DNA of 64,000 nucleotides from Candidatus Omnitrophota bacterium. Its GTDB lineage: Bacteria; Omnitrophota; Gorgyraeia; 2-01-FULL-45-10. Made by a program: the position numbers and the translations under genes. Shown here in pieces: positions 37,107 through 56,461 of the stretch (position 1 is its first letter; each line of letters opens with the position of its first letter). Under the pieces are notes generated by a model. The model was given only the letters and a program-made list of their open reading frames with translations, ran no database searches and was not told the DNA's origin. The stretch covers positions 6,878-70,877 of the forward strand of contig JAGOLR010000003.1 of NCBI GenBank assembly GCA_017993955.1, read 5' to 3'.

Positions 37107-37110
37107 AGCC

Positions 37111-37959
37111 ATGTTACGCTTTAAGGACATAGAGGGTATTTACCTGATAGCGGAAATAGGTATTAACCATAACGGTGATCTGGATATCGCCAAGCGGCTT
37201 ATTGATGCAGTATTTGCCTGTTCCTGGAATTGTGCTAAATTCCAGAAACGCGATCCCGATCTTTGCGTTCCGGAAAGGCAGAAGCATGTTGCTAAGGATA
37301 CGCCCTGGGGAAAGATGTCGTATCTTGCGTATAAGAAGAGGATAGAGTTTGGCAAAAAAGAATACGATTATATCGATGAATACAGCAAGTCGAAGCCGCT
37401 CGACTGGACGTCTTCAGTCTGGGATATGAACAGCCTGAAATTCATGCTACAGTATAAGGTGCCTTTCCTGAAAATACCATCTGCAAAGATATCCGACAAA
37501 AAATTGGTAGAAGCGGTTGCTAAGACCGGTATACCGGTTATCGCGTCAACGGGGATGAGTGTCATGAAAGAGGTCGATGATCTCGTGGACATATTGAAGC
37601 GCTACTCGTGCGAATTTGCCCTCATGCATACCAACTCTACTTACCCTACTCCAATAGAAGATATTAACATTCGCTGCATACATACTCTCAAGAAACGTTA
37701 TAACTGCGTTGTCGGATACAGCGGTCATGAGTATAATGTCGAACCCACCGTTTATGCAGCGGTACTGGGTGCAAAGATAATCGAGCGGCACATAACCCTG
37801 AACCACAAGATGTGGGGGACCGACCAGGCTGCTAGCCTCGAAGTGGCTGCTATGGATCTTTTGCGGAAAAGGATTCGCGATATCGATCTGGTGATGGGGG
37901 ATGGCAGGAAGAGAGTCACCCGCGGAGAAGAAGAGATTAGGTTAAAACTGAAGAAATGA
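37111..37959 (+). CDS. N-acetylneuraminate-synthase-family (NeuB/PseI/LegI-like) nonulosonic acid synthase, short form
   Basis: 'IYLIAEIGINHNGDLDIAKRLIDA...CAKFQKR' and 'GYSGHE'. The SAF domain appears truncated. Confidence 0.75.
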   Translation: MLRFKDIEGIYLIAEIGINHNGDLDIAKRLIDAVFACSWNCAKFQKRDPDLCVPERQKHVAKDTPWGKMSYLAYKKRIEFGKKEYDYIDEYSKSKPLDWTSSVWDMNSLKFMLQYKVPFLKIPSAKISDKKLVEAVAKTGIPVIASTGMSVMKEVDDLVDILKRYSCEFALMHTNSTYPTPIEDINIRCIHTLKKRYNCVVGYSGHEYNVEPTVYAAVLGAKIIERHITLNHKMWGTDQAASLEVAAMDLLRKRIRDIDLVMGDGRKRVTRGEEEIRLKLKK

Positions 37960-38660: not shown

Positions 38661-40259
38661 ATGGCAACTATTCTGATGGTTTACTGTAACAGGCTGGTCT
38701 CCGGGGTTCAGTATTCGGGCATAGCCAGTATGTCAGCCTTTGCAAAGAGAGGCGGTCATAAGTACCTGCTTTTTGACGCAGCGGCATATACGAATGAAAA
38801 AAAGGCAGGATCTTACCGGTCATATAAAGATAACAAGTTCCTTATCGACTTGGAATTCAGGCCGATAACGAATGCGGAAGTTATGCCATTCAAAAAGCCG
38901 ATGGCGGAATTATTGGCCGACCTTGAAAGCGAGCTCTTAAAGAGCAAGGTTGACGTGGTCGGTTTCTCTTCTTTTTCGGACGACTGGCCATTCACCCTTT
39001 TTCTTATACGGAAGGTTCGAGCTATGCTTCCGTCGACCCCCATAATTGTCGGAGGAGTGCACGCAACGGTCGCGCCTGATGAGGTTATTAAGCATGAAGA
39101 AGTCACGATGCTTTGCGTCGGAGAGGGTGAAGAAGCGCTTGTCGAGTTGCTAGACTCGATTGATAAAGGCCAGATCGACACGGCCATACAGAATTTGTGG
39201 ATTAAGACTGGTGATGCTGTCATCAAAAATAGTTTGCGGCCCCTCGTAAGGCTGGATGGTAGTTTTCCGAAAGCGGATTGGACGCTTTACAATGACATGC
39301 ACTTCTATTATCCATTTGAGGGCAAGCTGTTTCGCAGGGGCAGTGTCTTTGCAAGCAGGGGTTGTCCTTATTCATGCAGTTATTGCATAAACGATCTTTT
39401 TATGCGGCTCTATGCAGGGGATAAACCGTGCCGTTTTAAAGGAGTATCATATCTTATAGATGAGATATCGCGTTTAAAGGATACGTATGCTTTGGAGTTT
39501 TTGCGCTTCTGGGACGAAACATTCCTGGCAATGCCCCGTACATATCTGTCCGATTTTGAAAAAGAGTATAAAAGAGAGATTGGGCTTCCTTTTACAATAG
39601 AGACCACGGCCACGACGGTAACTGACGAGCGGTCCAGAATACTTGCAGAGATGGGATGTCAGTCAGTTAGTGTTGGCGTCGAGACGTCAAACGAACATTT
39701 GCGGACAGGTCTTCTCGGCAAGAAAGTTAGCAATGCTGCATACGATGAATGCTTTAGGCTGCTCACCAAGTACGGTTTGCGCAAAGTGGCTAATTTCATG
39801 TTCTTTCTCCCTCATCAGACGCTTGATGACATGTGGAATGATGTGCATGCCTGCAAGAAGTGGAAAATAGACCATCCTTCCGCAAGGATATTCTATCCGT
39901 ATCCTGGCACGACACTGAGGGAGTATTGCATGCGAAACGGAATGATAGACACCGCTGCGCTTGGCTGGATTGAAGATGAAGAAGCGATTAAATCGCTCAA
40001 CAACCTGAGTGAAAATTATATAACGTTCCAGGATACGGTCATGAAATGCGACACGCGCCTAAAGAGAGAAGGCAAAAAGATACTCGATAATTTTATACTT
40101 TTTCAGGAGACCGAAGTGCAGTCTCATGCTCGCCTTGTAGAATTATTAGACAGAGATGACTACGATGCAAAAAGCGTTATACGAACTATGGAATGCGATG
40201 TCTACAGAAAGCGTTTTGGCGAGGAGCCAGTATTAAAAAAGAGCCTGGATGCGATATGA
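38661..40259 (+). CDS. B12-binding domain radical SAM protein
   Basis: 'ASRGCPYSCSYCIND' (CxxxCxxC) and an N-terminal B12-binding-like domain. Length is 532 aa. Confidence 0.75.
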   Translation: MATILMVYCNRLVSGVQYSGIASMSAFAKRGGHKYLLFDAAAYTNEKKAGSYRSYKDNKFLIDLEFRPITNAEVMPFKKPMAELLADLESELLKSKVDVVGFSSFSDDWPFTLFLIRKVRAMLPSTPIIVGGVHATVAPDEVIKHEEVTMLCVGEGEEALVELLDSIDKGQIDTAIQNLWIKTGDAVIKNSLRPLVRLDGSFPKADWTLYNDMHFYYPFEGKLFRRGSVFASRGCPYSCSYCINDLFMRLYAGDKPCRFKGVSYLIDEISRLKDTYALEFLRFWDETFLAMPRTYLSDFEKEYKREIGLPFTIETTATTVTDERSRILAEMGCQSVSVGVETSNEHLRTGLLGKKVSNAAYDECFRLLTKYGLRKVANFMFFLPHQTLDDMWNDVHACKKWKIDHPSARIFYPYPGTTLREYCMRNGMIDTAALGWIEDEEAIKSLNNLSENYITFQDTVMKCDTRLKREGKKILDNFILFQETEVQSHARLVELLDRDDYDAKSVIRTMECDVYRKRFGEEPVLKKSLDAI

Positions 40260-41650
40260 AGATACTCCTGATAGTGTATGATAACGATTCCTTCCTTCAT
40301 TGGTTTCCCCTCGGACTTGGCTATATAGCGGCCGTTCTAAAAAGAGAGGGCCATGACGTGGAGATTTATCAGCAGGATGCGCACCATTTCCCTGAATCTC
40401 ATCTCACTGCACATCTTGAAAAGTCCCACTATGATGTAGTCGGAATCGGGGTTATAGCGGGTTATTATCAATACAGAAAAATCCTGAAGATTTCCGAGGC
40501 CATACGGAGGTCGAAAGATAAGCCGTTTTTTATTATAGGCGGCCATGGCCCAACACCCGAGCCGGAATTTTTCCTGAAGAAGACCGGGGCCGATGCGGTC
40601 ATTCTGGGCGAAGGAGAGGAAACGGTAGTGGAATTATGTGATGCGCTGAGTCGTGGGAGATCATGGAAGGATGTCAAGGGTATCGCGTATATCGATAACG
40701 ATACCGGAAAGCGTGTGATGACCGGATCTAGGCCGCTCATTAAGGATCTAGATACTATACCCTATCAGGCATGGGACCTTTTCGATATCGGCTATTACTC
40801 ATTATTCCGATTTCCGAATATAAGTCATAATCAGCGCGGCCTGCCCATAATTACCGGCCGCGGTTGCCCGTATACCTGCAATTTTTGCTATCGAATGGAG
40901 AAAGGCATGCGTCCCCGGACCGCCCAGAGCATAGTTGCTGAGGTTCGGGAATTGATGAAGAGATATGGCGTGACTTATATATCTTTTTGTGATGACCTTT
41001 TTATGGTGTCTGAGGCCAGGACAAAGGATTTGTGCGATGCATTCCTGACTGCCGGGCTTGGCATTAACTGGTATTGTAACGGCAGACTTAATTTTGCGTC
41101 AAAGGAAATACTACAACTGATGAAAAGGGCCGGTTGCGTTTTTGTGAATTATGGCATCGAGGCAATGGATGACCGGATACTGAAAAATATGAACAAAGCG
41201 CTGACTATTGAGCAGATAGTGAGGGGCGTAGAAAATACGCTCGCTGTCGGCATTAGCCCCGGATTAAATATTATATTCGGTAACATAGGTGAAGACAGGG
41301 AAACTCTTAATAAAGGAGTTGCGTTCCTGCTTAAGTACGATGATGCATCCCAGCTCAGGACGATAAGGCCCGTGACGCCGTATCCCGGATCTCCGCTGTA
41401 TTACGATGCGATCGATAAGGGATTGTTGAAGGATTGCGAAGATTTTTATGAAAGAAAGCATATAAATTCCGATCTGCTGACGGTTAATTTTACTGGAATG
41501 AGCGATATTGATTTTCATCAGTCTCTTCTAGAGGCAAACAAGGCATTGCTGGCAAATCATTTTAAGAAGAAGCTGCAAAGGGCTGTAGAGCAGTCAGAAA
41601 GTCTGTATATCAAAAAGAATGCCGCATTTCGCGGTTTTAGGCAGACATGA
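40256..41650 (+). CDS. B12-binding domain radical SAM protein
   Basis: 'TGRGCPYTCNFCYRME' and N-terminal 'KILLIVYDNDSF...GLGYIAAVL'. ATGA overlap with the upstream gene. Confidence 0.75.
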   Translation: MKILLIVYDNDSFLHWFPLGLGYIAAVLKREGHDVEIYQQDAHHFPESHLTAHLEKSHYDVVGIGVIAGYYQYRKILKISEAIRRSKDKPFFIIGGHGPTPEPEFFLKKTGADAVILGEGEETVVELCDALSRGRSWKDVKGIAYIDNDTGKRVMTGSRPLIKDLDTIPYQAWDLFDIGYYSLFRFPNISHNQRGLPIITGRGCPYTCNFCYRMEKGMRPRTAQSIVAEVRELMKRYGVTYISFCDDLFMVSEARTKDLCDAFLTAGLGINWYCNGRLNFASKEILQLMKRAGCVFVNYGIEAMDDRILKNMNKALTIEQIVRGVENTLAVGISPGLNIIFGNIGEDRETLNKGVAFLLKYDDASQLRTIRPVTPYPGSPLYYDAIDKGLLKDCEDFYERKHINSDLLTVNFTGMSDIDFHQSLLEANKALLANHFKKKLQRAVEQSESLYIKKNAAFRGFRQT

Positions 41651-41661
41651 GGCTTAAATAA

Positions 41662-43578
41662 ATGGGCCGATCAGGCGGTTCGGAAACAACAAATGTCTGG
41701 GTTCAGAAGATCGGGATAGTGCATATAATCATATTTGCTATGAAGGGTATCTTTTGCAGATATGCCGTATATTATGATGTCCGCGGCATTGACGTAATGA
41801 CAGGTTGGTTTATTGGGTTGCTTAGAAAGTCAGGATTGTGTGGTAATTTTTATCCTGAAAAGTTTCTCCTGGCGGAAAAGGAAGGGGAGGGCTTTGCATC
41901 GGTTCAAAGCATGTTTAAAGACCTGGATAAATCAATCGACAATTTTGTAGCGAAGCACTATGCTGCGGAATCGGACAGGTTAAAAAGGACCATAAAGTCG
42001 TATGTTGCGTATGCGTTGCGAAATAATAGCGCTTTCATGATCGCAGCCGGACGCAAGGCCGATGATACGAAAGGGGGTCGAAACCTGTTTTGTATAAGAA
42101 GGCACCCTCTCAATCACATACTGATTGACTACTATGTGAAAGAGCTAGGTTTGTTGGTAGGGGAGTGCGGCTTGCGGGACGTGATAATGTTTTATCTTAC
42201 CTCGTGTCTGTCTATCTGTTCGTCGGTCCTTTTCGCATGTATACCTGAAAGGACGATCCGCGATGCGGTGAATGTGAAACCGTCGATCTGGGTGGAATAT
42301 GCACCGCTTGATATATTGGATTTCTCTTTTTGGAGCGACTTCGTTGACAGGAGCGATTTTGATATAGTGGCGTATTTTGACCGGCCTGACTATGGTGATA
42401 TGGATAAAATTAAGTCGAAAGTCATATCGCGCGGGTTCAAGTGGGTGCAGTTTAACCATCCCCGATCGGCAAGACTTGGCAAGGTTTGTCTGCGCAGGCT
42501 TTTCAGAGGCTTGCCTTTCAGAGGTTATCGCGGTCTGCCCCTCTGGGCCCACATATTCCGCGTTGAATACCAGCTGACTTTTCTTTTGTATGAGGCTATT
42601 TTTAAGCGCTTTAAGGTTAAAATACTCATTCAGCATCAGGAGGCTGCCTGGAAGCAGAATGTTCAAGCTGCCGCCGTTGAATCGGCCGGGGGTATTATGA
42701 TCGGGTACAACTGGTCTATCTATTATTTCCGGTATCTACCGACGCATACATTTCCGCAGCATGTCTATTTTGTGTGGGGGAATGAGGTAGGCCGTTGTAT
42801 TGAGAAGATTGATAAACCGAAGTGCCTTCTGCCATCCGGGCTATGGATAACGTATGATGCCAAGGATGCACCGGCGGCACTGGAGAGCCTTGATAAAGGG
42901 ATTGCATTCAAGATCGCTATTTTCGACAATTCGACTGGTCAAACAACGGCATATTCGCCGGAAATGCTGCTAAGGTTCTATGTGATGCTTTTACGGTTAC
43001 TTGCGGATCATCGCGATTGGGGTGGCATCATAAAGAGTAAAAGCTACGATACGGCTGTTTTGGGATCATTTGCGGGCGGTGAGGAGGTGGTGGCGCAGAT
43101 GGAAGCGCTTATCGCTTCCAGGCGACTTGTGGTCCTCGATCGTAATTATAGTCCATTAGCCGCGTCATCAAACGCTGATATTTCAGTTTGTTTTGGTTTA
43201 AATACCGCAGGCATTATTTCTGGAATACACGGTCTCAGGTCTATTCATTGGGACTGCGGGGGCATAGTGACGCGTGTGGAGAATGCGGAATATTACAAGG
43301 ATATCGCGTATGTTGCGCTTGAAGATCTTAGCGCGGCGATCCTGAAGGCGGCTGCAGGAGACCGAAGTGTAGGGGATTTTTCAAAATGGCGTCAGCAGTT
43401 TAACTATTTTGACGATTTTCGCGCGGCCGAACGCGTCGGAGATTTTATACAAACGTATATGACCGAGCTCCTTCAGACAGGAGATGTGCACCAATCGTTG
43501 GCTCGATCCGTGCAAAGGTATAATCTGAAGAATAATTATACGAGGTCCAGTGCGGAGGTGGTTTTTGCGAAAGCATGA
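41662..43578 (+). CDS. hypothetical 638-aa protein of unknown function; the C-terminal region is paralogous to the C-terminal domain of the 47458-49629 gene product (candidate CMP-sugar transferase-like domain)
   Basis: There are no recognisable catalytic motifs of the common families. It shares 'A[DH][HR]..' and 'A(A/H)SS(N/T).(D/S)IS' segments with the 47458 gene product. A large antisense ORF within it is considered a shadow ORF. Confidence 0.4.
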   Translation: MGRSGGSETTNVWVQKIGIVHIIIFAMKGIFCRYAVYYDVRGIDVMTGWFIGLLRKSGLCGNFYPEKFLLAEKEGEGFASVQSMFKDLDKSIDNFVAKHYAAESDRLKRTIKSYVAYALRNNSAFMIAAGRKADDTKGGRNLFCIRRHPLNHILIDYYVKELGLLVGECGLRDVIMFYLTSCLSICSSVLFACIPERTIRDAVNVKPSIWVEYAPLDILDFSFWSDFVDRSDFDIVAYFDRPDYGDMDKIKSKVISRGFKWVQFNHPRSARLGKVCLRRLFRGLPFRGYRGLPLWAHIFRVEYQLTFLLYEAIFKRFKVKILIQHQEAAWKQNVQAAAVESAGGIMIGYNWSIYYFRYLPTHTFPQHVYFVWGNEVGRCIEKIDKPKCLLPSGLWITYDAKDAPAALESLDKGIAFKIAIFDNSTGQTTAYSPEMLLRFYVMLLRLLADHRDWGGIIKSKSYDTAVLGSFAGGEEVVAQMEALIASRRLVVLDRNYSPLAASSNADISVCFGLNTAGIISGIHGLRSIHWDCGGIVTRVENAEYYKDIAYVALEDLSAAILKAAAGDRSVGDFSKWRQQFNYFDDFRAAERVGDFIQTYMTELLQTGDVHQSLARSVQRYNLKNNYTRSSAEVVFAKA

Positions 43579-44053
43579 TCGCAAGATCGTTCTGCGGAAT
43601 ATATCTTTGATCGTATACGACTTTGACGGTGTCCTTACGGATAATAAGGTCATTCTCCGCGAAGACGGTATGGAGAGCGTGGTCCTTAACAGGTCAGACG
43701 GTATGGCTATGAGAATGATCATGGATAGAGGGATTGAGCAGATCATAATAACGTCGGAAGTGAACAACATAGCGCTCGCGCGATCAAAAAAGTTGGGGAT
43801 AGCGGCAATGAGCAGGGTGAATGATAAGAAGAGGGCCCTTGTGGAGTATTGCGGTAAGCGCGACGTACCATTGAGCCGGGTTTTGTATATCGGAAATGAT
43901 ATAAATGATCTTGAAGTCATGAAAGCGGTCGGGGTTGCTGCGTGTCCTTCGGATGCGTGCGATGAGATCAGGACGATCGCCGATCTGATCCTGCGTTCGC
44001 GCGGAGGGTGCGGCGTTGTGCGGGAACTATTGAACTCATTACAGGCTTTATAG
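43550..44053 (+). CDS. HAD-IIIA family sugar-phosphate phosphatase (KdsC / nonulosonate-9-phosphate phosphatase-like)
   Basis: 'LIVYDFDGVLTDN' (DxDGV motif) and 'YIGNDINDLEVMKAVGVAACPSDA'. Confidence 0.8.
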   Translation: MRRWFLRKHDRKIVLRNISLIVYDFDGVLTDNKVILREDGMESVVLNRSDGMAMRMIMDRGIEQIIITSEVNNIALARSKKLGIAAMSRVNDKKRALVEYCGKRDVPLSRVLYIGNDINDLEVMKAVGVAACPSDACDEIRTIADLILRSRGGCGVVRELLNSLQAL

Positions 44054-44073
44054 TGAAAGATCGATAAAAGGAG

Positions 44074-44976
44074 ATGCGGTATATGGGAAAGAGGACTGTG
44101 AAGATCGGCACTAAAGTTATCGGCGATGCAATGCCCTGTTATGTGATCGCTGAGATAGGCATTAACCATAACGGATCCTTGGACATAGCAAAAAGGCTCA
44201 TCGATGCCGCCTACGATTCGGGGTGCGATGCGGTCAAGTTTCAAAAACGGACTATCGACATAGTTTATAGTCAGGAGGAGTTGTCCAAACCCCGAGAGAG
44301 CCCGTTCGGCAAAACGAATGGTGACTTGAAGAGGGGGTTGGAATTCGGCGCGAAAGAATATGCTGAGATTGACTCGTATTGTAAGGCCAAAGGCATTGTC
44401 TGGTTTGCCTCGTGCTGGGACGAGAATTCAGTGGACTTCATCAGTCGATTCGAAGTACCGTGTTATAAGGTAGCCTCGGCATCGCTTACCGATGATGCTT
44501 TATTGAAGCATCATCGCGCAAAGGGCAGGCCAATCATCCTTTCGACGGGGATGAGTGACATGAGGATGATCGAGCATGCCCATGATGTCCTGGGAGAGGA
44601 TGATTTGATCATTATGCACTGCACGAGCACCTATCCTTCAAAACCGGAAGAGCTCAATCTTGGCGGCATACGGACGTTGCTGCAAAGATTTAATCTGCCG
44701 ATAGGGTATTCCGGTCATGAGGTTGGCCTATACACGACATTCGCTGCCGTTGTACTTGGCGCATCCGTCGTTGAACGTCACATCACCCTGGACAGGTCAA
44801 TGTGGGGCAGTGACCAGGCCGCTTCCGTTGAACCTCAGGGATTCAAGCGCCTGGTTTCGGATATTCGAACCTGGGAGCAGGCAAAGGGGGATGGCGATAT
44901 TCGGATATATGAAAGCGAAATACCCATTATAAAGAAGTTAAGGCGGGTGGGCGGAGATGTCGGTGTCAAAGCATAG
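44074..44976 (+). CDS. N-acetylneuraminate-synthase-family (NeuB-like) nonulosonic/ulosonic acid synthase, second paralog
   Basis: 'CYVIAEIGINHNGSLDIAKRLIDAAYDSGCDAVKFQKR' and 'GYSGHE'. Confidence 0.75.
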   Translation: MRYMGKRTVKIGTKVIGDAMPCYVIAEIGINHNGSLDIAKRLIDAAYDSGCDAVKFQKRTIDIVYSQEELSKPRESPFGKTNGDLKRGLEFGAKEYAEIDSYCKAKGIVWFASCWDENSVDFISRFEVPCYKVASASLTDDALLKHHRAKGRPIILSTGMSDMRMIEHAHDVLGEDDLIIMHCTSTYPSKPEELNLGGIRTLLQRFNLPIGYSGHEVGLYTTFAAVVLGASVVERHITLDRSMWGSDQAASVEPQGFKRLVSDIRTWEQAKGDGDIRIYESEIPIIKKLRRVGGDVGVKA

Positions 44977-45682
44977 AATAGTCGCGGTGATACCCGCCAG
45001 AGGCGGTTCGAAAGGCATTCCCGGGAAAAATATCATAGATTTTTGCGGAAAGCCTTTAATAGCGTGGTCGATCGAGCAGGCCTTGGGTAGTGCTTTGATT
45101 GAAAGAGTGTATGTCTCTTCAGATGATGCCGAGATATGCAAAATTTCAGAATATTACGGAGCGACAGCCATCAAGCGTCCCGCGAGCCTGGCGACTGCCA
45201 GCGCTTCAACGGAAGGTGCGCTCAGCCATGCGGTGCGATCCGTAGAAGATTCCAGCGGTAAAAGCATAGATGCGGTCGTATTTCTTCAAGCTACATCTCC
45301 CCTGAGGGTTACTATAGATATCAATTCCGCCATCGATCTGTTTGTCTCTAAAAAAGCGGACTCTCTTTTTTCCGGTTCCTTGCTCGATGATTTTTGCGTC
45401 TGGGAGCGTAAAGGCCGCAGGCTGAATAGCCTGACCTATGATTATAAGAACAGAGGTCGTAGGCAGGAGAGGGAGCCGCTTTTTCTTGAGAATGGCTCGA
45501 TCTATATATTTAAACCGTCAGTGATCAGGCGGTATAACAACAGGCTTGGTGGCAGGATTGTTTTTTATCCGATGCCTTTTTGGAAATCTTATGAAATAGA
45601 CAAGTCCGAAGATGTAGAGATTTGTGAGTATTACATGCGCAAGAATATACTCAGGAAGGGAGGGTCATGGTGCAAAGACTAG
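44957..45682 (+). CDS. acylneuraminate cytidylyltransferase (CMP-nonulosonate synthetase, NeuA/LegF/PseF-like)
   Basis: 'IVAVIPARGGSKGIPGKNIIDFCGKPLIAWSIEQA' and 'LQATSPLR'. Confidence 0.8.
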   Translation: MSVSKHRIVAVIPARGGSKGIPGKNIIDFCGKPLIAWSIEQALGSALIERVYVSSDDAEICKISEYYGATAIKRPASLATASASTEGALSHAVRSVEDSSGKSIDAVVFLQATSPLRVTIDINSAIDLFVSKKADSLFSGSLLDDFCVWERKGRRLNSLTYDYKNRGRRQEREPLFLENGSIYIFKPSVIRRYNNRLGGRIVFYPMPFWKSYEIDKSEDVEICEYYMRKNILRKGGSWCKD

Positions 45683-46644
45683 TCTATATGAACGGGAAGT
45701 TCGTCCCGGAATCGGAGGCAAAAATTTCAATATTCGATTCGGCATTAATGTTTGGGGACATGGTATTTGAGATGACAAGGTCTTTCAATAAAAAACAGTT
45801 CAAACTTGTTGAGCATCTCGAGCGCTTATATTATGGTATAAAAATATTCAGAATACCTATGAAGATCGATATTGAAGAAATGGAGCATCTTTGCGAAGAG
45901 GTCGTCAGTAAAAATGAACAGGCTTTTGGTAAACACGACGAGCATAGACTTATGATAAACGTGAGCAGAGGCCCCCTAGCTATATACAGCCATGTTTTCG
46001 CAGACAAGTTAGAGCCAACGCTGGTAATAGCAGACTTTCCATTAAAATGGACAGTTACCGGGATGGGAAAACTTTTTGATAAAGGTATAAATGCCGTTAT
46101 AACATCTCAGCGCGCCATACCAGCCTATCTACTGGATCCTAAGATAAAGAATCGAAGCAGGATACATTATCAGATGGCGAATATAGAGGCTTCTTATCAC
46201 AAGGGTGATAATAACTGGGCGCTCTTACTCGACCCAGATGGCTTTATTGCTGAAGGTACAGGAGATAATTTTTTTATAGTTAAGGACGGCATTGTGATAA
46301 CCCCCGAAGGTCGCAATATACTTAGGGGTATAAGCAGGGCTTATGTTTTTGAACTCTGCGAACAATTGAAACTAAAATATATAGAGAAGAATATAGAGCC
46401 TTACGATGTCTATACTGCTGATGAAGCTTTTATGACCGGCACGCCCTTTTGTGCGTTGCCTGTAACCAGTCTGAACGGGATATTGATCGGAAGCGGCGGC
46501 AGGATGGGTAAGATAACAAAACGGATTTTAGACAGGTGGGGAGAAAATGTCGGTGTCGATATAGTCGCCCAGATAAAAAAGTTTAATGAAGAAACCGAGA
46601 ACCTGAATAAGGTTGCCGGTCCCACGCCCTACAAATTCGATTAA
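45667..46644 (+). CDS. PLP fold-type IV aminotransferase (branched-chain/D-amino-acid aminotransferase family). The start is possibly the ATG at 45688
   Basis: 'MNGKFVPESEAKISIFDSALMFGDMVFE' is the typical BCAT/DAAT N-terminus. Confidence 0.7.
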   Translation: MVQRLVYMNGKFVPESEAKISIFDSALMFGDMVFEMTRSFNKKQFKLVEHLERLYYGIKIFRIPMKIDIEEMEHLCEEVVSKNEQAFGKHDEHRLMINVSRGPLAIYSHVFADKLEPTLVIADFPLKWTVTGMGKLFDKGINAVITSQRAIPAYLLDPKIKNRSRIHYQMANIEASYHKGDNNWALLLDPDGFIAEGTGDNFFIVKDGIVITPEGRNILRGISRAYVFELCEQLKLKYIEKNIEPYDVYTADEAFMTGTPFCALPVTSLNGILIGSGGRMGKITKRILDRWGENVGVDIVAQIKKFNEETENLNKVAGPTPYKFD

Positions 46645-46660
46645 AAACAGGAAACAAAAA

Positions 46661-47461
46661 ATGGCCAAATGCTTTAATGGTTTGACGACCGTTAATGTGG
46701 AACTTACGAGTATCTGCAATAAGGACTGTTGGATGTGCGGAAGGCGTAAGATAGATCGGGAATATCCGGCAATTAAACTTGGTTATGGAAACATGGATAT
46801 AAGACTCGTGCGGTCCATAGCTCATCAATTGCCTGATGACATAGTAGTGCAGTTGCACAATAACGGTGAACCATTGATGTATCCGGAATTTGGCACAGCA
46901 GCGAAACTTTTTTCTAGGCAGTTAAGGTGCGCCGATACTAATGGCAAGCTCCTCGTTGAGAAGGCCGATGAGATAATTGGTAACATGGATACGCTTACCG
47001 TATCTACTTTCGAGAATGATGAGGAAGCCGATGAACAGTATAGACTCGTGAAAAAGTTTCTTAAGCTTAAACGTGACAGGAAGCCCAACGTGATAATAAG
47101 GTGCTTAGGAGACGTGAAGCTTGAAAGATACAGGAAGCTGGGTTGTATAATAGCAACGCGCATACTCCACTCTCCGCTCGGTAGTTTTAACTACAGAAAG
47201 AAAGCCACCGTACCGGAGATAGGGATATGCCTGGATCTTTTGAATCATATGGTAATAAGGCGGGATGGGAAAGTGTCGACATGCGTGAGATTTGATCCCC
47301 TCGGCTTAGGAGTCATAGGGGATTGTACCATGGGAAAATTATCGGATATATGGGCCGGGCTAAAACGTAAAAAGTTGATCAATTATCATCTGAAGGGCAG
47401 GCGGGATAAAGCACCGTTGTGCAGTTATTGTGAATTCTGGGGCGTTCCAACAGGGTATTGA
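46661..47461 (+). CDS. radical SAM protein (small, about 266 aa)
   Basis: 'ELTSICNKDCWMCGRR' (CxxxCxxC) and 'HNNGEPLM'. Confidence 0.7.
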   Translation: MAKCFNGLTTVNVELTSICNKDCWMCGRRKIDREYPAIKLGYGNMDIRLVRSIAHQLPDDIVVQLHNNGEPLMYPEFGTAAKLFSRQLRCADTNGKLLVEKADEIIGNMDTLTVSTFENDEEADEQYRLVKKFLKLKRDRKPNVIIRCLGDVKLERYRKLGCIIATRILHSPLGSFNYRKKATVPEIGICLDLLNHMVIRRDGKVSTCVRFDPLGLGVIGDCTMGKLSDIWAGLKRKKLINYHLKGRRDKAPLCSYCEFWGVPTGY

Positions 47462-51470: not shown

Positions 51471-53009
51471 TTGAAGATTACATTGATTTCTCCATATTCA
51501 GATGTGCAATCATTCGGATTGCGTTCCATGTCTTCATGCATTAAAAAAAATGGACATGAAACTCAAATATTGTTTTTGGTGAATCATTTTTCGCGCCCAT
51601 ATAGTAATGAAGTACTTGAAGAAGCGGTCAAGGCATCAAGCGGTTCGGATCTTATTGGTATATCGCTGATGACTAATTTTTTTGATAACGCTGTCCAGAT
51701 AACCCGCAAGTTTAAAAAGGATCTTAATGTGCCGGTAATTTGGGGAGGCGTTCACCCTACATTAAGACCTAAAGAATGTCTTGATTATGCGGACATCGTC
51801 TGTATCGGTGAAGGCGAAACTACCATTGTTGAAGTTTTGTCTGCATTCGAAGAAAAGAGACCGCTTCGCGGGATTAAGGGCATATGGTTCAAGGATAATG
51901 AAGATATTATCAGGAACGAAATGAGGCCGCTTATAAACGAACTTGATGCCATCCCATTCCCCGATTACGACTACGAGGGTCATTGTATATTGAGCGATGG
52001 GCATATAAGTCCAATGAACTCAAAAGTTCTGAACAAATATACACATGGTGCCTATGTTACTATGTCCACAAGAGGTTGCCCTTTTATATGTACGTATTGT
52101 TGTAATAATTTCTTTCATAAATTATATCAGGGCGAGAAGATAATTAGAAAAAGGACTATCGATAATATAATCAAAGAGCTGGTAACGGCAAAAAATATGT
52201 TCCCATTTATCACAAACATGAGGTTTGAGGATGATTGTTTTTTTGTTTACACTGATGAGGAGATAGAAAAATTTAGCCACAATTATAAAAAAGAAGTAGG
52301 CCTACCTTTATTAATTCCCGGGATATCGCCTTCGACGTTCAGTAGAAATAAGTTATCTATGCTTGCGGATGCCGGACTTCGCTGGATAAGAATGGGTATA
52401 CAAACAGGCAGTGAGCGGACTAAACAAATGTACAAGCGTGTCTATTCTAATGAAAAGGTCGCCGATGTTATTAAAACTATCAATGAATTCAAGGACAGGA
52501 TAATGTTGCCTAGTTACGATGTTATTCTGGATAATCCATGGGAAACGGACGAAGACCTTACTGACACTCTGCTCTTCTTGTCGGCCCTTCCCGTTCCATA
52601 TAAGCTAAACCTCTTTTCGCTTGTATTTTACCCTGAAACAGAATTGTATGAGAAGGCGAAGAGGGACGGCATTATTCGAGATGATCTTAATGATGTGTAC
52701 CGGAAATATGTGGCGGGCTGTAAAAAAACCTATGTAAACAATTTGTTCTTTCTCTTGAACGATTATGCTTCGGTAGGGAAACGTTTGCCTCCTGGCGCAA
52801 TTAAGTTGCTTACGGACCAGAAACTTAGGTGTTTGAAGCTGAGTTGGATTATATATGTTTTCTTTAAGATTCGCATCCTTCTTTCCTTCCGGAGGTTATG
52901 GAGAGTCAGCTATTATCTAAGTGAAGCTATGAAAGACATGAAGAAAGGTGAATATGCAAGAATTAAAAGGTTCTTTGGTATAGTGCGCCTGAAAAAGGAG
53001 GGGCAATGA
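51471..53009 (+). CDS. B12-binding domain radical SAM protein (TTG start; the exact start is uncertain)
   Basis: 'STRGCPFICTYCCNNF' and N-terminal 'KITLISPYSDVQSFGLRSM'. Confidence 0.7.
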   Translation: MKITLISPYSDVQSFGLRSMSSCIKKNGHETQILFLVNHFSRPYSNEVLEEAVKASSGSDLIGISLMTNFFDNAVQITRKFKKDLNVPVIWGGVHPTLRPKECLDYADIVCIGEGETTIVEVLSAFEEKRPLRGIKGIWFKDNEDIIRNEMRPLINELDAIPFPDYDYEGHCILSDGHISPMNSKVLNKYTHGAYVTMSTRGCPFICTYCCNNFFHKLYQGEKIIRKRTIDNIIKELVTAKNMFPFITNMRFEDDCFFVYTDEEIEKFSHNYKKEVGLPLLIPGISPSTFSRNKLSMLADAGLRWIRMGIQTGSERTKQMYKRVYSNEKVADVIKTINEFKDRIMLPSYDVILDNPWETDEDLTDTLLFLSALPVPYKLNLFSLVFYPETELYEKAKRDGIIRDDLNDVYRKYVAGCKKTYVNNLFFLLNDYASVGKRLPPGAIKLLTDQKLRCLKLSWIIYVFFKIRILLSFRRLWRVSYYLSEAMKDMKKGEYARIKRFFGIVRLKKEGQ

Positions 53010-53773
53010 CGTTAAAGGCAAGATTGCGGTCCGGTAAGCTTACCATAGGTTCATGGATAACGATAGGAAATTTGTCTGTGGCCGAGATCATGGCTCGCGC
53101 GGGATTCGACTGGCTGGCTATCGACATGGAGCATTCGGCTATAACGCTTGATAAAGCTCAAGAGCTCATCCAGGTCATCGGGCTATGCGGCACTCCGGCG
53201 CTTGTCAGAGTCGGAGAAAATGACCCGGTTGTCATAAAACGGGTCATGGATGCCGGAGCGCAAGGGGTTATTGTCCCAATGATAAATTCTGCCCGGGACG
53301 CTCTGGCGGCGGTGCGCGCGGTCAAGTACCCGCCTATGGGGACGCGTGGCGTAGGCCTTGCGCGGGCGCAGGGATACGGACTGGGTTTTTCGGCCTATGC
53401 CGGATGGGTGAACAGAGGAAGTATCGTGATAGCGCAGATCGAGCATATTACGGCTGTCGATAATCTGGACGAGATCCTGGCTGTTGACGGCATAGACGCG
53501 TTCATCGTTGGGCCGTATGACCTGTCCGCATCGATGGGCATACCGGGAAAATTCGAAGATTTGCGGGTCAAGAACGCCCTTTCCAGGATCATGCGGACGG
53601 CAAAGGTCCATAAAGCGGTCGCTGGATTTCATGTCATACCGCCTAATGCGAAGGAAGTGTTGAAGAAAGTGCGGGAAGGTTACAGATTTGTTGGGTTCAG
53701 TCTTGATACACTCTTTCTGGGAGCGAAGTGCAGAGATGAATTCTCATTATTAAAGGACGGGTTAAAAAGATGA
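53006..53773 (+). CDS. HpcH/HpaI-family class II (pyruvate-dependent) aldolase
   Basis: 'GSWITIGNLSVAEIMARAGFDWLAIDMEHS' and 'VIVPMINSARDA' match the 2-keto-3-deoxy-acid aldolase family. Confidence 0.8.
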   Translation: MTLKARLRSGKLTIGSWITIGNLSVAEIMARAGFDWLAIDMEHSAITLDKAQELIQVIGLCGTPALVRVGENDPVVIKRVMDAGAQGVIVPMINSARDALAAVRAVKYPPMGTRGVGLARAQGYGLGFSAYAGWVNRGSIVIAQIEHITAVDNLDEILAVDGIDAFIVGPYDLSASMGIPGKFEDLRVKNALSRIMRTAKVHKAVAGFHVIPPNAKEVLKKVREGYRFVGFSLDTLFLGAKCRDEFSLLKDGLKR

Positions 53774-54537
53774 ATATAATCGGAATCATACCCGCGCGTA
53801 TGTCCTCAAGTCGCTTTCCCGGCAAACCTTTGGCAGAGATCGCCGGCATCCCGATGATAGGGCATGTCTATTACCGCAGTACGATGAGCAAGATGTTGGA
53901 CCGGGTCTATATTGCAACATGTGACGATGAGATTAGAAGATATGCCGTTTCGATAGGCGCCGGGGTCATTATGACGGGCGCTCACCATCAGCGGGCTTCG
54001 GACAGGGCTGCGGAGGCGATGTTGAAGATCGAGCGACAAAATGGCAAGAAGGTAAGCGTTGTCGTCATGATACAGGGTGATGAACCGATGCTTACCCCGC
54101 AAATGATAGATCTTGCGGTGAAGCCTATGGTGAAAAACAGACGGATACAGGTGGTTAATCTTATGTCGCCAATGAAGGATGTCTGCGAGCATGAAGACCC
54201 CAACGAAGTCAAGGTGGTCGTGGATAAGGAAGGTTATGCGCTCTATTTTTCCAGAGAGCCGATACCTTCAAGAAAGAAAGGTGCGACGCGAATCCCTATG
54301 CTGAAGCAGGTCTGTATAATACCCTTTAGGAGGGATTTTCTGATCAGATTTAATAAGCTTACCCCGACACCGCTAGAGATAATCGAATCTGTGGATATGC
54401 TGAGAGTGCTTGAGCATGGATATAAGGTAAAGATGGTGATGAGCCTGAATGATACGTACAGCGTCGATACGCTGGACGACCTGCGATGCGTGGCGAAACA
54501 TCTCATAAGAGATCCTCTAGTGAAGAGATACGCATAA
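53770..54537 (+). CDS. kdsB: 3-deoxy-manno-octulosonate cytidylyltransferase-like (CMP-Kdo synthetase family, KdsB-like)
   Basis: 'IIGIIPARMSSSRFPGKPL', 'IQGDEPM' and 'VKVVVDKEGYALYFSREPIP' are collinear with E. coli KdsB. Confidence 0.8.
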   Translation: MNIIGIIPARMSSSRFPGKPLAEIAGIPMIGHVYYRSTMSKMLDRVYIATCDDEIRRYAVSIGAGVIMTGAHHQRASDRAAEAMLKIERQNGKKVSVVVMIQGDEPMLTPQMIDLAVKPMVKNRRIQVVNLMSPMKDVCEHEDPNEVKVVVDKEGYALYFSREPIPSRKKGATRIPMLKQVCIIPFRRDFLIRFNKLTPTPLEIIESVDMLRVLEHGYKVKMVMSLNDTYSVDTLDDLRCVAKHLIRDPLVKRYA

Positions 54538-54551
54538 GAGAGGCGCGTGCT

Positions 54552-55490
54552 ATGGATGCCGGAAAAAGTTCAACAGTCCCTGCGAAATGCGAACTCTGTG
54601 ATGCTTCGATACGCAAGCCCTCGATTATCGGTAATGATGTATACGGCGGCAGCGCGGATCAAAAATTCTACCGGTGCCCGCACTGCGACGTAGCTTTTTT
54701 ATATCCCCGCATGAGCGAGAAGGATGAAAAACGTTTTTATGCTCAGGAATTCGAAAGATTTATGGAGAAACGCGCCGGAAAAGATTTTGATTGGAGAGGC
54801 CCGGAGGCCCATATCCAGTCGAATCAGAAGCAATACGCGAGGCGCCTTCCGTTCTTTGAGGAGCTTCTGTCGCCGTCCTTGAGCGTTCTCGAAGTAGGTT
54901 GCTCATCCGGTTTTATGCTCTTGCCGTTGAAAGAACGGGGATTGGATGTAGTAGGGATAGAGCCATCCGGAGGTTTTTCCGGATTTTTGAAACAGAAAGG
55001 CATAGATGTCTATAGTTCTATGCAGGACTTAAAAGACAGTGCCGTAGACGTGAAAGAGTTTGACCTGGTGATGCATTTTTTTGTTCTGGAGCATATGCGA
55101 GATCCGGTAAAATTCATGCGAGATACGCTTGGATTTTTAAAACCAGGTGGTGTCATGATATGCGAGGTCCCAAGCAGAAGCGATCCGCTGCTTACCATAT
55201 ATAATATCCCGGCATTTCATAAGTTCTACTGGTCTGTGGCACATAATTATTATTTTAATCGTCCATCACTGGAATATGTTTTATATCAAGTGTGCGATGA
55301 TTTCGAAATTCTGCCGGAACAGCGTTACGACATATCCAATCATATGACATGGGCATTGGAAGGAAAACCCGGGGGGCAGGGGAAATATACGTCGTTTTTT
55401 ACGCCCGAACTGGAAAGCTCTTATCTGGAGAGTATGAAGAGGACCGGACACTGTGATACGATGGTAGTCCGCATTTGTAAAAAAGGATAA
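54552..55490 (+). CDS. SAM-dependent methyltransferase with an N-terminal CxxC...CxxC zinc-ribbon (C-methyltransferase-like architecture); alternative start at 54486
   Basis: 'CELCDAS...YRCPHCDVAF' and 'VLEVGCSSGFML', 'FDLVMHFFVLEHMRDP'. Confidence 0.7.
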   Translation: MDAGKSSTVPAKCELCDASIRKPSIIGNDVYGGSADQKFYRCPHCDVAFLYPRMSEKDEKRFYAQEFERFMEKRAGKDFDWRGPEAHIQSNQKQYARRLPFFEELLSPSLSVLEVGCSSGFMLLPLKERGLDVVGIEPSGGFSGFLKQKGIDVYSSMQDLKDSAVDVKEFDLVMHFFVLEHMRDPVKFMRDTLGFLKPGGVMICEVPSRSDPLLTIYNIPAFHKFYWSVAHNYYFNRPSLEYVLYQVCDDFEILPEQRYDISNHMTWALEGKPGGQGKYTSFFTPELESSYLESMKRTGHCDTMVVRICKKG

Positions 55491-55495
55491 ATGAT

Positions 55496-56461
55496 ATGAG
55501 AGCGGCATTGGTTACCGGAGGAGCTGGTTTTATAGGGTCACATTTGTCGGAAAGGCTTCTGAGAGAAGGGTGGAAGGTCTATGTGGTTGATAACCTCTCG
55601 ACCGGTTTTAAAGAGAACATCCCTGCGGGGGCCGAATTTGTCTTTCTTGATCTTTCGAAAGATGATTTTGCGCAATCGCTTCCCCGAATCCGATTTGATG
55701 CTGTTTTTCACCTGGCCGCGCAATCTTCGGGAGAGATCTCGTTTGATGACCCTGTCTACGACTTGAAGACCAATTGTCTGAGCACTCTTATATTGCTCGA
55801 TTGGTGTGTGAAACATGGTATTAAGCGGTTTCTCTATACCAGTTCTATGTCGATATACGGGGACCAGGAGCAGCAGCCCGTGAGAGAAGATGCGCCTTTT
55901 GCGGCAAAATCTTTTTATGGTGCAGGCAAGCTGGCTTCTGAAAGCTATGTGAATATCTACTCGAAGATGGGCATTGACACCACATCGCTGCGCCTTTTCA
56001 ATGTGTATGGACCGGGTCAGAATATGCAGAATCTCAGGCAAGGCATGGTCAGTATATTCATGGCGTATATACTCAAGAAGGAAGAGATACTTGTCAAGGG
56101 CTCGCCCGATCGTTACAGAGATTTTGTCTATATTGACGATGTTGTTGAGGCGTATATGAAGTGCCTTACGAACACACGGACGTTCGGGAAGACGTATAAT
56201 GTAGCTTCGGGCGAACGGAATTATGTGCGTGATCTTATCGAACTCGAACTCAAAGCATTCGGGTATGACTCGGCCGCCTATCCGGTCAGATATAGCGGAA
56301 CGACGCCAGGCGATACTTTCGGCATATTCGCCGATACCGCGGCCATTCAAATGGATACGGGATGGAGCCCGAGGTTTTCTCTGGCGGAAGGGCTGAAGAG
56401 GATGTCTGAATGGGCTATCTCGGCCAAGCAAATATCTACAGCGCCCCGGAGGCATAAATGA
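55496..56461 (+). CDS. NAD-dependent sugar epimerase/dehydratase (GalE-like SDR)
   Basis: '[19 protein letters not shown]' and '[11 protein letters not shown]'. Confidence 0.75.

What the first reader, a model, noticed from the sequence alone, without database searches (positions are those of the whole stretch)
53006..54537. HpcH/HpaI pyruvate aldolase translationally coupled to a KdsB-like CMP-ulosonate synthetase
No KdsA (Kdo-8-P synthase) or KdsD is present. Instead a class II pyruvate-dependent aldolase (255 aa) overlaps the start of a clear KdsB homolog (ATGA junction at 53770). HpcH-family aldolases condense pyruvate with aldehydes to give 4-hydroxy-2-keto acids. Acting on a sugar aldehyde, this would produce a 3-deoxy-2-ulosonic acid through a PEP-independent route. 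KdsB would then activate the product. This is an atypical biosynthetic logic for a Kdo-like sugar.
Basis: inference. Interest (0 to 1): 0.65.

Follow-up and report, generated by a model that had tools for sequence, protein, structure and literature searches.

The report
Aldolase-based route to a CMP-activated sugar acid
A pyruvate aldolase and a Kdo-activating-type enzyme are paired here and in hundreds of bacteria, archaea and some viruses, which points to an undescribed way of building a sialic/Kdo-like surface sugar without the usual PEP-dependent synthase.

Summary
ORF 53006-53773 is a catalytically intact HpcH/HpaI class II aldolase. ORF 53770-54537 is a KdsB-type cytidylyltransferase. 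They share an ATGA overlap inside a 64-kb one-strand glycan cluster of a Candidatus Omnitrophica MAG.

The pairing is not chance:
- At least 594 species-representative genomes carry an aldolase orthologue, including archaea, CPR bacteria, Chloroflexota and Actinobacteria, which make no LPS.
- 78 of the best 80 loci have a CTP_transf_3 gene on the same strand within 8 kb. It is either KdsB-like or a dedicated NeuA-type clade.
- Natural fusions exist: HpcH-cytidylyltransferase, KdsB-like-2-hydroxyacid dehydrogenase and KdsB-like-GFO.
- Distant viral versions keep the trio, once next to a GT29 sialyltransferase-family gene.
- KdsA and KdsD are absent from every locus examined.

The KdsB-like clade keeps its catalytic residues but replaces Kdo-contacting H181 and Y185, so the sugar is probably not Kdo.

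Most relatives add a PGDH-like dehydrogenase, a phosphatase and sugar-phosphate enzymes that this window lacks. The exact product, and whether the donor is pyruvate or hydroxypyruvate, stay unresolved. Ten literature searches found no description. It is interesting and untested biochemically.

The parts
51471..53009 (+). B12-binding radical SAM enzyme, a putative C-methyltransferase. Its stop overlaps the aldolase start (ATGA). The deposited call starts at 51528.
   Evidence: Pfam B12-binding + Radical_SAM; gene call. B12-rSAM genes lie within 7-8 kb of the aldolase in 10-17 of 80 related loci, sometimes between HpcH and KdsB-like. Its role is inferred.
53006..53773 (+). HpcH/HpaI-family class II (metal-dependent) pyruvate aldolase of a distinct, highly conserved glycan-cluster clade.
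   Evidence: Pfam 128.5 bits. About 40% identity to YfaU/RhmA and HpaI. Catalytic H43, R68, E146 and D172 align to YfaU H49, R74, E153 and D179 and are invariant in 27 orthologues. Below every equivalog cut-off: HpaI 182 vs 369, GarL 156 vs 407, RhmA 155 vs 441.
53770..54537 (+). KdsB-type CTP:ulosonate cytidylyltransferase (CMP-sugar synthetase) with an altered sugar pocket.
   Evidence: CTP_transf_3 175 bits. Passes the kdsB HMM cut-offs. 38% identity to E. coli KdsB. R10, R15, K19, Q98, D100, R157, R213 and D235 are kept; H181Q, Y185I, E210D, Q211M and S74R are changed clade-wide.
54486..55490 (+). Class I SAM methyltransferase (Methyltransf_23), probably tailoring the sugar.
   Evidence: Pfam. 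Orthologues at 44-45% identity sit beside SDR_A after HpcH-KdsB-like in a Hadarchaeia archaeon (L026) and an Ignavibacteria MAG (L062).
55496..56461 (+). GalE-like extended SDR (SDR_A), the third conserved member of this sub-cassette.
   Evidence: Pfam Epimerase 205 bits. 51% identical to the SDR directly after KdsB-like in L001 and L004. Also present in L026, L062 and L071. Its function (epimerase or oxidoreductase on the activated sugar) is inferred.

Best explanation
The aldolase and the KdsB-like enzyme are two consecutive steps of a PEP-independent pathway to a CMP-activated 2-ulosonic acid that is not Kdo.

Step 1 (inferred): the class II aldolase forms the C3-C4 bond by adding the metal-bound enolate of pyruvate to the aldehyde of a free or phosphorylated aldose. 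This gives a 4-hydroxy-2-keto sugar acid.

Step 2 (inferred from family membership and intact catalytic residues): the KdsB-type enzyme attacks CTP with the anomeric C2-OH of the cyclised ulosonate. This gives the CMP-sugar plus PPi, and it pulls the otherwise reversible aldol reaction forward.

Step 3 (inferred): the coupled B12-radical SAM enzyme, the methyltransferase and the GalE-like SDR tailor the sugar, possibly at the CMP stage. Glycosyltransferases of the cluster then add it to a surface glycan.

Shown here: gene order and coupling, conservation of catalytic residues, conserved co-occurrence, fusions, and the absence of KdsA/KdsD. Not shown: the substrates, the product and the direction of the aldolase reaction.
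For: - Coupling: ATGA overlaps link rSAM, HpcH and KdsB-like.
- Breadth: at least 594 species-representative genomes carry an orthologue. These include Hadarchaeia, Methanoperedens, Thermoplasmatales, Saccharibacteria/Nealsonbacteria, Dehalococcoidia and Actinobacteria, which have no LPS Kdo.
- Co-occurrence: 78/80 loci have a same-strand CTP_transf_3 gene within 8 kb, and the 2 exceptions are cut by contig ends. KdsB-type occurs in 50 loci. Where it is missing, a separate NeuA-type clade sits next to HpcH (25/27 such genes; 49% identity within the clade, 28-29% to NeuB-linked ones).
- Spacing and co-evolution: 26/49 pairs are 50 bp or less apart, and Mantel r = 0.39, p = 0.001.
- Fusions: P0121 is a full HpcH + CTP_transf_3 protein, P0125 is a second one, and P0215 is HpcH + 2HADH. 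KdsB-like is also fused to 2HADH, GFO, a Hexapep acyltransferase or GT2.
- Reverse check: two of three independently chosen KdsB-like genes have an adjacent HpcH, and the third is cut by the contig end.
- CMP-sugar transferase families lie next to the cassette: MptE-like/Maf and GT29 on viral contig L118.
- No KdsA or KdsD occurs anywhere.
- In the window, both NeuB genes have their own adjacent cytidylyltransferase. HpcH is therefore the only unpaired C-C bond-forming enzyme.
- The aldolase catalytic tetrad is invariant.
- The KdsB-like catalytic residues are invariant while H181 and Y185 are replaced. Y185 and Q98 bind the Kdo C5-OH according to PMC12199768.
Against: - There is no biochemical evidence of any kind.
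- Aldol condensation is thermodynamically less favourable than PEP-dependent synthesis.
- Known HpcH-family enzymes are catabolic.
- 36/42 full-flank relatives also carry a PGDH-like 2-hydroxyacid dehydrogenase. It is often accompanied by a phosphatase plus SDR_B and a lactonase (a bona fide Pgl in Aquimarina), or by GFO plus a GmhA-like SIS. The simple pyruvate + aldose model does not assign roles to these enzymes.
- The window lacks all of them, so it may be an incomplete or dependent variant.
- The acceptor aldehyde cannot be named.
Confidence: 0.6

Rival explanations
1. The route is the same, but the aldolase donor is hydroxypyruvate (or 3-phosphohydroxypyruvate) rather than pyruvate. The PGDH-like enzyme would make it from 3-phosphoglycerate, with the HAD/IMPase phosphatase removing the phosphate. 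The product would then be a 3-hydroxy (Ko-like, non-3-deoxy) 2-ulosonic acid.
For: 2HADH is the most frequent partner after the cytidylyltransferase (54-58/80 loci) and co-evolves with HpcH (Mantel r = 0.49). Its closest solved relatives are 3-phosphoglycerate dehydrogenases (1WWK, 203 bits). It is fused to KdsB-like in at least 6 protein clusters and to HpcH in P0215. A phosphatase (HAD2 or an IMPase-family protein) usually accompanies it. From my own knowledge, HpcH-family aldolases are reported to accept hydroxypyruvate as a nucleophile.
Against: The window and the rest of its contig have no 2HADH and no HAD2. Even so, its aldolase shows no distinguishing residue at conserved columns. The variants with a DHQS-like enzyme lack a phosphatase. 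The substrate of 2HADH is not established.
Confidence: 0.2
2. The ulosonate is made oxidatively, not by the aldolase. The proposed chain is aldose-6-P, then lactone (SDR_B or GFO), then aldonate-P (Pgl or a cyclase-type lactonase), then 2-keto-aldonate-P (PGDH/KguD-like 2HADH), then 2-keto-aldonate (phosphatase), then the CMP-sugar. In this reading the HpcH enzyme acts on the 2-keto-3,4-dihydroxy acid as a retro-aldol/aldol epimerase or chain-exchanging enzyme.
For: SDR_B, Pgl, 2HADH and HAD2 lie in that order in L083 and L094, and the Aquimarina protein passes the pgl cut-off (189 vs 124). SDR_B gives a weak hit to Azf-type G6P dehydrogenase. A 2-ketogluconate reductase is among the 2HADH relatives. 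Module Y (GmhA-like SIS + GFO + 2HADH + IMPase) fits the same scheme with a heptose phosphate.
Against: This does not explain the window, L026 and similar loci, where HpcH and KdsB-like occur without any of these enzymes. HpcH, not the dehydrogenases, is the gene fused to and translationally coupled with the cytidylyltransferase. No epimerase role is documented for this family.
Confidence: 0.13
3. The pairing is incidental. The KdsB-like protein activates genuine Kdo (for LPS or capsule) or a NeuB-made nonulosonate. The aldolase would then make a side-chain or acyl substituent, or serve salvage or catabolism.
For: The protein passes the curated kdsB HMM cut-offs. Omnitrophota are diderms. Two NeuB genes lie in the same cluster. 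Characterised HpcH enzymes are catabolic.
Against: The clade occurs in archaea, CPR bacteria, Chloroflexota and Actinobacteria, which lack Kdo. Kdo-contacting H181 and Y185 are replaced clade-wide. NeuB lies within 7 kb in only 9/80 loci, and both window NeuBs have their own cytidylyltransferases. Fusion proteins exist. No hpa/hpc/gar/rhm catabolic genes occur in any locus.
Confidence: 0.05

Closest known systems
Kdo pathway (KdsD, KdsA, KdsC, KdsB)
   Same: The end step is the same: a KdsB-family enzyme makes a CMP-activated 2-ulosonic acid. Many relatives also have a SIS-type sugar-phosphate isomerase and a phosphatase, which mirror KdsD and KdsC.
   Different: No KdsA (PEP-dependent DAHP-synthase-fold enzyme) or KdsD occurs anywhere. 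C-C bond formation is assigned to a class II pyruvate aldolase instead. The sugar pocket of the cytidylyltransferase is changed. The cassette occurs in organisms without LPS.
Nonulosonic acid pathways (NeuB/NeuA, PseI/PseF, LegI/LegF, Kdn-9-P synthase)
   Same: The logic is the same: condense a 3-carbon keto-acid unit with an aldose, activate the product with CTP through a CTP_transf_3 enzyme, and transfer it with Maf-type or sialyltransferase-type enzymes. One flavour of the cassette uses a NeuA-type cytidylyltransferase.
   Different: The condensing enzyme is not NeuB (PEP-dependent). NeuB is absent from most loci (9/80 within 7 kb).
Sialic acid aldolase NanA plus CMP-sialate synthetase (catabolic enzyme in vivo; the pair is used for one-pot chemoenzymatic synthesis, from my own knowledge)
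   Same: A pyruvate-dependent aldolase makes the ulosonate and a CTP-dependent synthetase pulls the equilibrium. This is exactly the coupling proposed here. In Aquimarina a YhcH/DUF386 protein, otherwise found in the nan operon, sits between the two genes.
   Different: NanA is a class I (Schiff-base, DHDPS-fold) aldolase and works catabolically in cells. Here the enzyme is a class II metal-dependent HpcH-fold aldolase embedded in biosynthetic clusters.
YfaU/RhmA, GarL and HpaI (characterised HpcH-family aldolases)
   Same: Same fold and catalytic tetrad, about 40% identity. They act on 2-keto-3-deoxy sugar acids.
   Different: Those enzymes sit in catabolic operons. This clade scores far below their equivalog cut-offs and has clade-specific invariant residues (for example H147 and H209). 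It is found only in glycan clusters.
Kdo aldolase activity, EC 4.1.2.23 (my own knowledge; the one paper holding the term does not develop it)
   Same: A reversible pyruvate + aldose reaction giving an octulosonate.
   Different: It was described as a catabolic activity. I could not connect it to a gene family with the tools used here.

Membership tests
HpcH/HpaI class II pyruvate aldolases (PF03328) | Domain match above the Pfam gathering score | tested here: met
   128.5 bits vs cut-off 25, covering profile positions 3-213 of 221.
HpcH/HpaI class II pyruvate aldolases (PF03328) | Catalytic His and Arg plus the Glu/Asp metal ligands (YfaU H49, R74, E153, D179) | tested here: met
   H43, R68, E146 and D172 align to these positions and are invariant in 27 orthologues.
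Specific catabolic aldolases HpaI, GarL and RhmA (equivalog level) | Score above the curated equivalog cut-off | tested here: not met
   HpaI 181.8 vs 368.8; GarL 155.8 vs 406.75; RhmA 155.5 vs 441.
Specific catabolic aldolases HpaI, GarL and RhmA (equivalog level) | Catabolic hpa/hpc, gar or rhm operon context | tested here: not met
   The neighbours are glycan-biosynthesis genes in the window and in all 80 related loci.
KdsB (CMP-Kdo synthetase) | HMM score above the curated cut-off | tested here: met
   TIGR00466 169.5 vs 155.2; NF009905 298.2 vs 255; NF003952 268.5 vs 193.
KdsB (CMP-Kdo synthetase) | CTP-binding and catalytic residues (E. coli R10, R15, K19, Q98, D100, D235) | tested here: met
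   All are conserved in the window protein and in 37/37 close orthologues.
KdsB (CMP-Kdo synthetase) | Kdo-contacting residues H181 and Y185 (active-site residues in PMC12199768) | tested here: not met
   H181 is Q in 36/37 and Y185 is I in 34/37. E210D and Q211M are also changed clade-wide. H181 and Y185 are conserved in the canonical KdsBs 3OAM and 8EES.
KdsB (CMP-Kdo synthetase) | Works with KdsA/KdsD in a Kdo-producing organism | tested here: not met
   No KdsA or KdsD in the contig or in 84 loci. The clade is present in archaea and in monoderm and CPR lineages. The rest of the source genome could not be searched.
KdsB (CMP-Kdo synthetase) | Enzymatic activity on Kdo + CTP | not testable with these tools
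   This needs an enzyme assay.
PEP-dependent ulosonate synthase route (NeuB or KdsA partner) | A NeuB/KdsA-family synthase dedicated to this cytidylyltransferase | tested here: not met
   The window NeuBs at 37057 and 44074 each abut another CTP_transf_3 gene. NeuB lies within 7 kb of HpcH in only 9/80 loci.

The most novel reading that the evidence does not exclude
A widespread cassette, found in at least 594 species across bacteria and archaea and in distant form on viral contigs, makes a so-far unidentified CMP-activated ulosonic acid through a class II aldolase instead of a PEP-dependent synthase. The sugar may be non-3-deoxy, C-methylated, or of unusual chain length. This would be a third, independent biosynthetic logic for sialic/Kdo-like surface sugars, and the KdsB-like genes in these genomes would be systematically misannotated as CMP-Kdo synthetases.
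Probability: 0.5. Interest if true: 0.8.

Novelty: new variant of a known kind. Interest (0 to 1): 0.72.

Why it matters
All textbook routes to Kdo and to the sialic-acid-like nonulosonic acids form the carbon skeleton with PEP-dependent synthases (KdsA, NeuB). Genome surveys predict these sugars from those genes.

If the aldolase route is real, three things follow. A whole class of acidic surface sugars is invisible to such surveys. Many 'CMP-Kdo synthetase' annotations in archaea, CPR bacteria, Chloroflexota, Planctomycetota, Omnitrophota and viruses are wrong. A natural aldolase + synthetase pair, in some cases fused, would also become available for making CMP-activated sugar acids.

The hypothesis is directly testable, because a cultured carrier exists (Aquimarina hainanensis KCTC 42423, locus L083).

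Tried and rejected
1. Literature. Terms combined with HpcH were cytidylyltransferase, nonulosonic and CMP. Other queries covered pyruvate-dependent aldolase with KdsB, the usual annotation names, Kdo aldolase, and Pse5Am7Gra/glyceroyl. The Tannerella paper states that the genetic basis of the N-glyceroyl group is unknown and mentions no aldolase or PGDH. I could therefore neither support nor dismiss a 'glyceroyl side-chain supply' reading from the literature. I rejected it because most loci lack NeuB.

2. Missing accessory genes. I looked for the 2HADH/HAD2/SDR_B module in the unseen 6.9 kb of the source contig, and it is not there.

3. Donor signature. I looked for an aldolase residue signature separating loci with and without 2HADH as a proxy for donor specificity. 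There is none.

4. Kdo-contact residues. I tried to obtain a full list of Kdo-contacting residues from two further KdsB papers. Neither gives one, so the pocket argument rests on Q98, Y185 and H181 from PMC12199768.

5. Viral orthologues. I searched viral contigs for orthologues. Only distant relatives (43% identity or less) were found, but they keep the same neighbourhood.

6. Not used. I did not run structure prediction or fold search. Sequence similarity to solved YfaU/HpaI and KdsB structures is unambiguous, and a model would not identify the substrate.

7. Product. I considered naming a specific product: KDG-type hexulosonate, DAH-type heptulosonate, a 3-deoxy-hexulosaric acid from tartronate semialdehyde, or a Ko-like octulosonate. 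I rejected doing so because the evidence does not discriminate between them.
Full report
**What is there**

The window is a 64-kb stretch of contig JAHZTK010000866.1 from a Candidatus Omnitrophica MAG, GCA_020047475.1. Essentially all of its roughly 60 genes lie on the + strand and encode glycan-biosynthesis functions. These include NDP-sugar dehydratases and epimerases, aminotransferases, glycosyltransferases, many methyltransferases, several radical SAM enzymes, an ABC exporter, and Gmd/Fcl.

At the stated coordinates there are two 255-aa ORFs. ORF 53006-53773 is an HpcH/HpaI-family protein: Pfam 128.5 bits and about 40% identity to YfaU/RhmA and HpaI. ORF 53770-54537 is a KdsB-type cytidylyltransferase. 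It matches CTP_transf_3 at 175 bits, passes the curated kdsB cut-offs, and is 38% identical to E. coli KdsB.

The KdsB-like ATG overlaps the aldolase TGA (ATGA). A second ATGA joins the upstream B12-binding radical SAM gene to the aldolase. Nothing resembling a terminator or promoter stands out in 51-58.6 kb.

KdsA and KdsD are indeed absent. However, the cluster contains two SAF-less NeuB-family synthases (37057-37959, 44074-44976) and a KdsC-like phosphatase (43550-44053). It also contains three other CTP_transf_3-type genes: 33813-35081 (fused to a methyltransferase), 36435-37106 and 44957-45682. Each NeuB abuts its own cytidylyltransferase. The KdsB-like enzyme is therefore the one cytidylyltransferase whose only neighbouring C-C bond-forming enzyme is the aldolase.

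**Are the enzymes functional?**

The aldolase residues H43, R68, E146 and D172 align with the YfaU catalytic His and Arg and the metal ligands H49, R74, E153 and D179. They are invariant in 27 orthologues.

The protein nevertheless scores far below the equivalog cut-offs for HpaI, GarL and RhmA. It belongs to a tight separate clade, 53-72% identical across phyla.

The KdsB-like protein keeps R10, R15, K19, Q98, D100, R157, R213 and D235 (E. coli numbering). Its clade uniformly changes H181 to Q, Y185 to I, E210 to D, Q211 to M and S74 to R. Y185 and Q98 hydrogen-bond the Kdo C5-OH, and H181 lies in the active site (PMC12199768). H181 and Y185 are conserved in the canonical KdsBs aligned. The enzyme thus looks catalytically competent but tuned to a sugar other than Kdo.

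**Is the pairing more than chance?**

- A scan of species-representative genomes found at least 594 loci encoding an aldolase relative. The 80 best (53-63% identity) come from Planctomycetota, Omnitrophota, Nitrospirota, Desulfobacterota, Bacteroidota (including cultured Aquimarina hainanensis), Chloroflexota, Actinobacteria, Patescibacteria, Firmicutes and at least six archaeal lineages.
- 78 of these 80 loci have a CTP_transf_3 gene on the same strand within 8 kb. The two exceptions are cut by contig ends.
- In 50 loci the gene is KdsB-type. Where KdsB-type is absent, a distinct NeuA-type clade lies directly next to the aldolase. The CMP-transferase is thus replaced by a non-orthologue but never lost.
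- 26 of 49 HpcH-to-KdsB-like pairs are 50 bp or less apart, and nine share the 4-bp overlap. Their distance matrices correlate (Mantel p = 0.001).
- Querying with the two window proteins concatenated recovered a full-length natural fusion: P0121, with HpcH at residues 6-230 and CTP_transf_3 at 259-475. It also recovered a second, truncated fusion (P0125) and an HpcH-2HADH fusion (P0215). KdsB-like is additionally fused to a 2-hydroxyacid dehydrogenase (at least 6 clusters), to GFO/IDH/MocA, to a hexapeptide acyltransferase and to GT2.
- Starting instead from KdsB-like proteins, two of three long contigs show an adjacent HpcH, and the third is cut by the contig end.
- Transferase families that use CMP-ulosonates lie beside the cassette. 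An MptE-like/Maf-type domain sits between the NeuA-type gene and HpcH and after KdsB-like in L095.
- On viral contig L118 a GT29 sialyltransferase-family gene precedes CTP_transf_3, HpcH, 2HADH and an SDR, with overlapping ORFs.
- Viral HpcH genes are only about 30% identical to the window aldolase. Even so, 28 of 40 viral loci have a cytidylyltransferase and 15 have a 2HADH.
- No locus has KdsA or KdsD, and none shows an hpa/hpc, gar or rhm catabolic context.

**The wider cassette**

De novo clustering of neighbours shows a core of HpcH, a cytidylyltransferase and a PGDH-like 2-hydroxyacid dehydrogenase. The dehydrogenase is present in 54-58 of 80 loci and in 36 of 42 loci with full flanks. 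Its closest solved relative is P. horikoshii PGDH. Two alternative accessory modules attach to this core.

- Module X is SDR_B, a hydrolase and a HAD-IA phosphatase. The hydrolase is either a cyclase-family protein or a bona fide 6-phosphogluconolactonase, as in Aquimarina, with a weaker match in L094.
- Module Y is a GFO/IDH/MocA oxidoreductase, a GmhA-like SIS_2 isomerase, and a third component. That component is either an inositol-monophosphatase-family phosphatase, or a classical SDR plus a TIGR04425 'AroB-related sugar phosphate phospholyase'.

Phosphate removal is thus provided in three different ways. This suggests that a phosphorylated sugar or sugar acid is an intermediate. Tailoring genes (methyltransferases, B12-rSAM, DegT, Hexapep) are enriched in the KdsB-type flavour.

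The window has HpcH, KdsB-like, a methyltransferase and SDR_A, a sub-cassette that recurs in a Hadarchaeia archaeon and an Ignavibacteria MAG. It has none of 2HADH, SDR_B, HAD2, SIS or GFO associated with the pair, either in the window or in the rest of the contig. Its aldolase carries no distinguishing residue at conserved columns.

**Most likely mechanism (confidence about 0.6)**

The aldolase condenses a 2-keto-acid donor with an aldose or aldose phosphate to give a 2-ulosonic acid. In this window the donor is most simply pyruvate. The KdsB-type enzyme converts the product to the CMP-sugar, with PPi release making the reversible aldol step effectively irreversible. The coupled rSAM, methyltransferase and SDR tailor the sugar, and cluster glycosyltransferases install it on a surface polymer.

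Rivals:
- (a) The same route with hydroxypyruvate supplied by the PGDH-like enzyme and a phosphatase. This explains the commonest partners but not this window.
- (b) An oxidative route to 2-keto-aldonates through SDR_B or GFO, a lactonase, 2HADH and a phosphatase, with HpcH as an epimerase or chain exchanger. This is coherent for modules X and Y, but it does not explain loci that lack them, nor the HpcH-cytidylyltransferase fusions.
- (c) An incidental pairing in which KdsB-like acts on Kdo or on NeuB products. Distribution, pocket changes, fusions and NeuB scarcity all argue against this.

**Comparison with known systems, and novelty**

The system works like the Kdo and nonulosonate pathways at the activation and transfer steps. 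At the condensation step it works like the NanA + CMP-sialate-synthetase coupling used in vitro. It is not a member of the KdsD/KdsA/KdsC/KdsB pathway, because KdsA and KdsD are absent and the Kdo-contact residues are not conserved. It is also not a NeuB-type pathway.

Ten full-text searches found no description of the pairing.

I rate it a new variant of a known kind. It is a widespread, uncharacterised and probably misannotated cassette whose central chemistry is a testable departure from the PEP-dependent rule. The main uncertainty is the complete lack of biochemical data, which leaves the product unknown.

Noticed in passing
L118 4554-8577; L112 5977-8395; 40 viral loci L096-L135: IMG/VR viral contigs carry distant HpcH aldolases (27-43% identity) with the same neighbours. 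A CTP_transf_3 gene is present in 28/40 loci and a 2-Hacid_dh in 15/40. In L118 a GT29 sialyltransferase-family gene lies directly upstream. This would be a virus-encoded version of the cassette.
   Followed up: partly
window 43550-47461 (and L004 3387-6770): A second conserved module consists of a KdsC-like HAD, a SAF-less NeuB, a PseF-like cytidylyltransferase, a class IV (IlvE-like) aminotransferase and a radical SAM/SPASM protein. The last four are 50-75% identical to an equivalent block in L004. A class IV aminotransferase next to NeuB is unusual for nonulosonate pathways.
   Followed up: partly
window 33813-35081, 36435-37106, 37057-37959: A third ulosonate-type set is present: a CTP_transf_3-methyltransferase fusion protein, a very divergent PseF-like protein (54 bits) overlapping the start of a second SAF-less NeuB, and a radical SAM gene between them. 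The cluster thus encodes four CTP_transf_3-type proteins in all.
   Followed up: no
window 15618-16997, 38661-40259, 40193-41650, 51471-53009: Four B12-binding radical SAM enzymes sit in one glycan cluster, alongside many class I methyltransferases. This suggests heavily C- and O-methylated sugars.
   Followed up: no
proteins P0129, P0131, P0133, P0135, P0139, P0156, P0176, P0182, P0169, P0189, P0201: The KdsB-like domain is repeatedly fused at its C-terminus to a PGDH-like 2-hydroxyacid dehydrogenase, a GFO/IDH/MocA oxidoreductase, a hexapeptide acyltransferase, or GT2 + Zn-ADH. This hints that oxidation and acylation happen close to, or at, the CMP-sugar stage.
   Followed up: partly
L035 13516-14598 and 12 other loci: A TIGR04425 'AroB-related putative sugar phosphate phospholyase (cyclizing)' scores 440 bits against a cut-off of 400. 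It is always paired with a classical SDR and takes the place of the phosphatase in one cassette variant. Its role is unexplained.
   Followed up: no
window 30656-32548: An asparagine-synthase-type amidotransferase is closest to the XrtA/PEP-CTERM-system amidotransferase family (648 bits, below the cut-off of 817). It possibly amidates a sugar carboxylate.
   Followed up: no
window 41662-43578, 20092-21609, 21599-22999: Three large proteins (638, 505 and 466 aa) have no Pfam or NCBIfam match. A 33%-identical relative of the 638-aa protein lies upstream of ABC, HpcH and KdsB-like in L078. They are candidate novel transferases or polymerases.
   Followed up: no
L002 8810-9718 (- strand): In the Nealsonbacteria locus a second, very divergent HpcH-like gene (weak Pfam hit, 302 aa) lies on the opposite strand between the aldolase and the KdsB-like gene.
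   Followed up: no
L004 12238-14190; L001 12307-14277: A roughly 650-aa protein within the cassette matches TIGR04326, the 'LIC13510 family surface carbohydrate biosynthesis protein' (216 bits, below the cut-off of 250). It is a candidate transferase for the CMP-sugar and is absent from the window.
   Followed up: no
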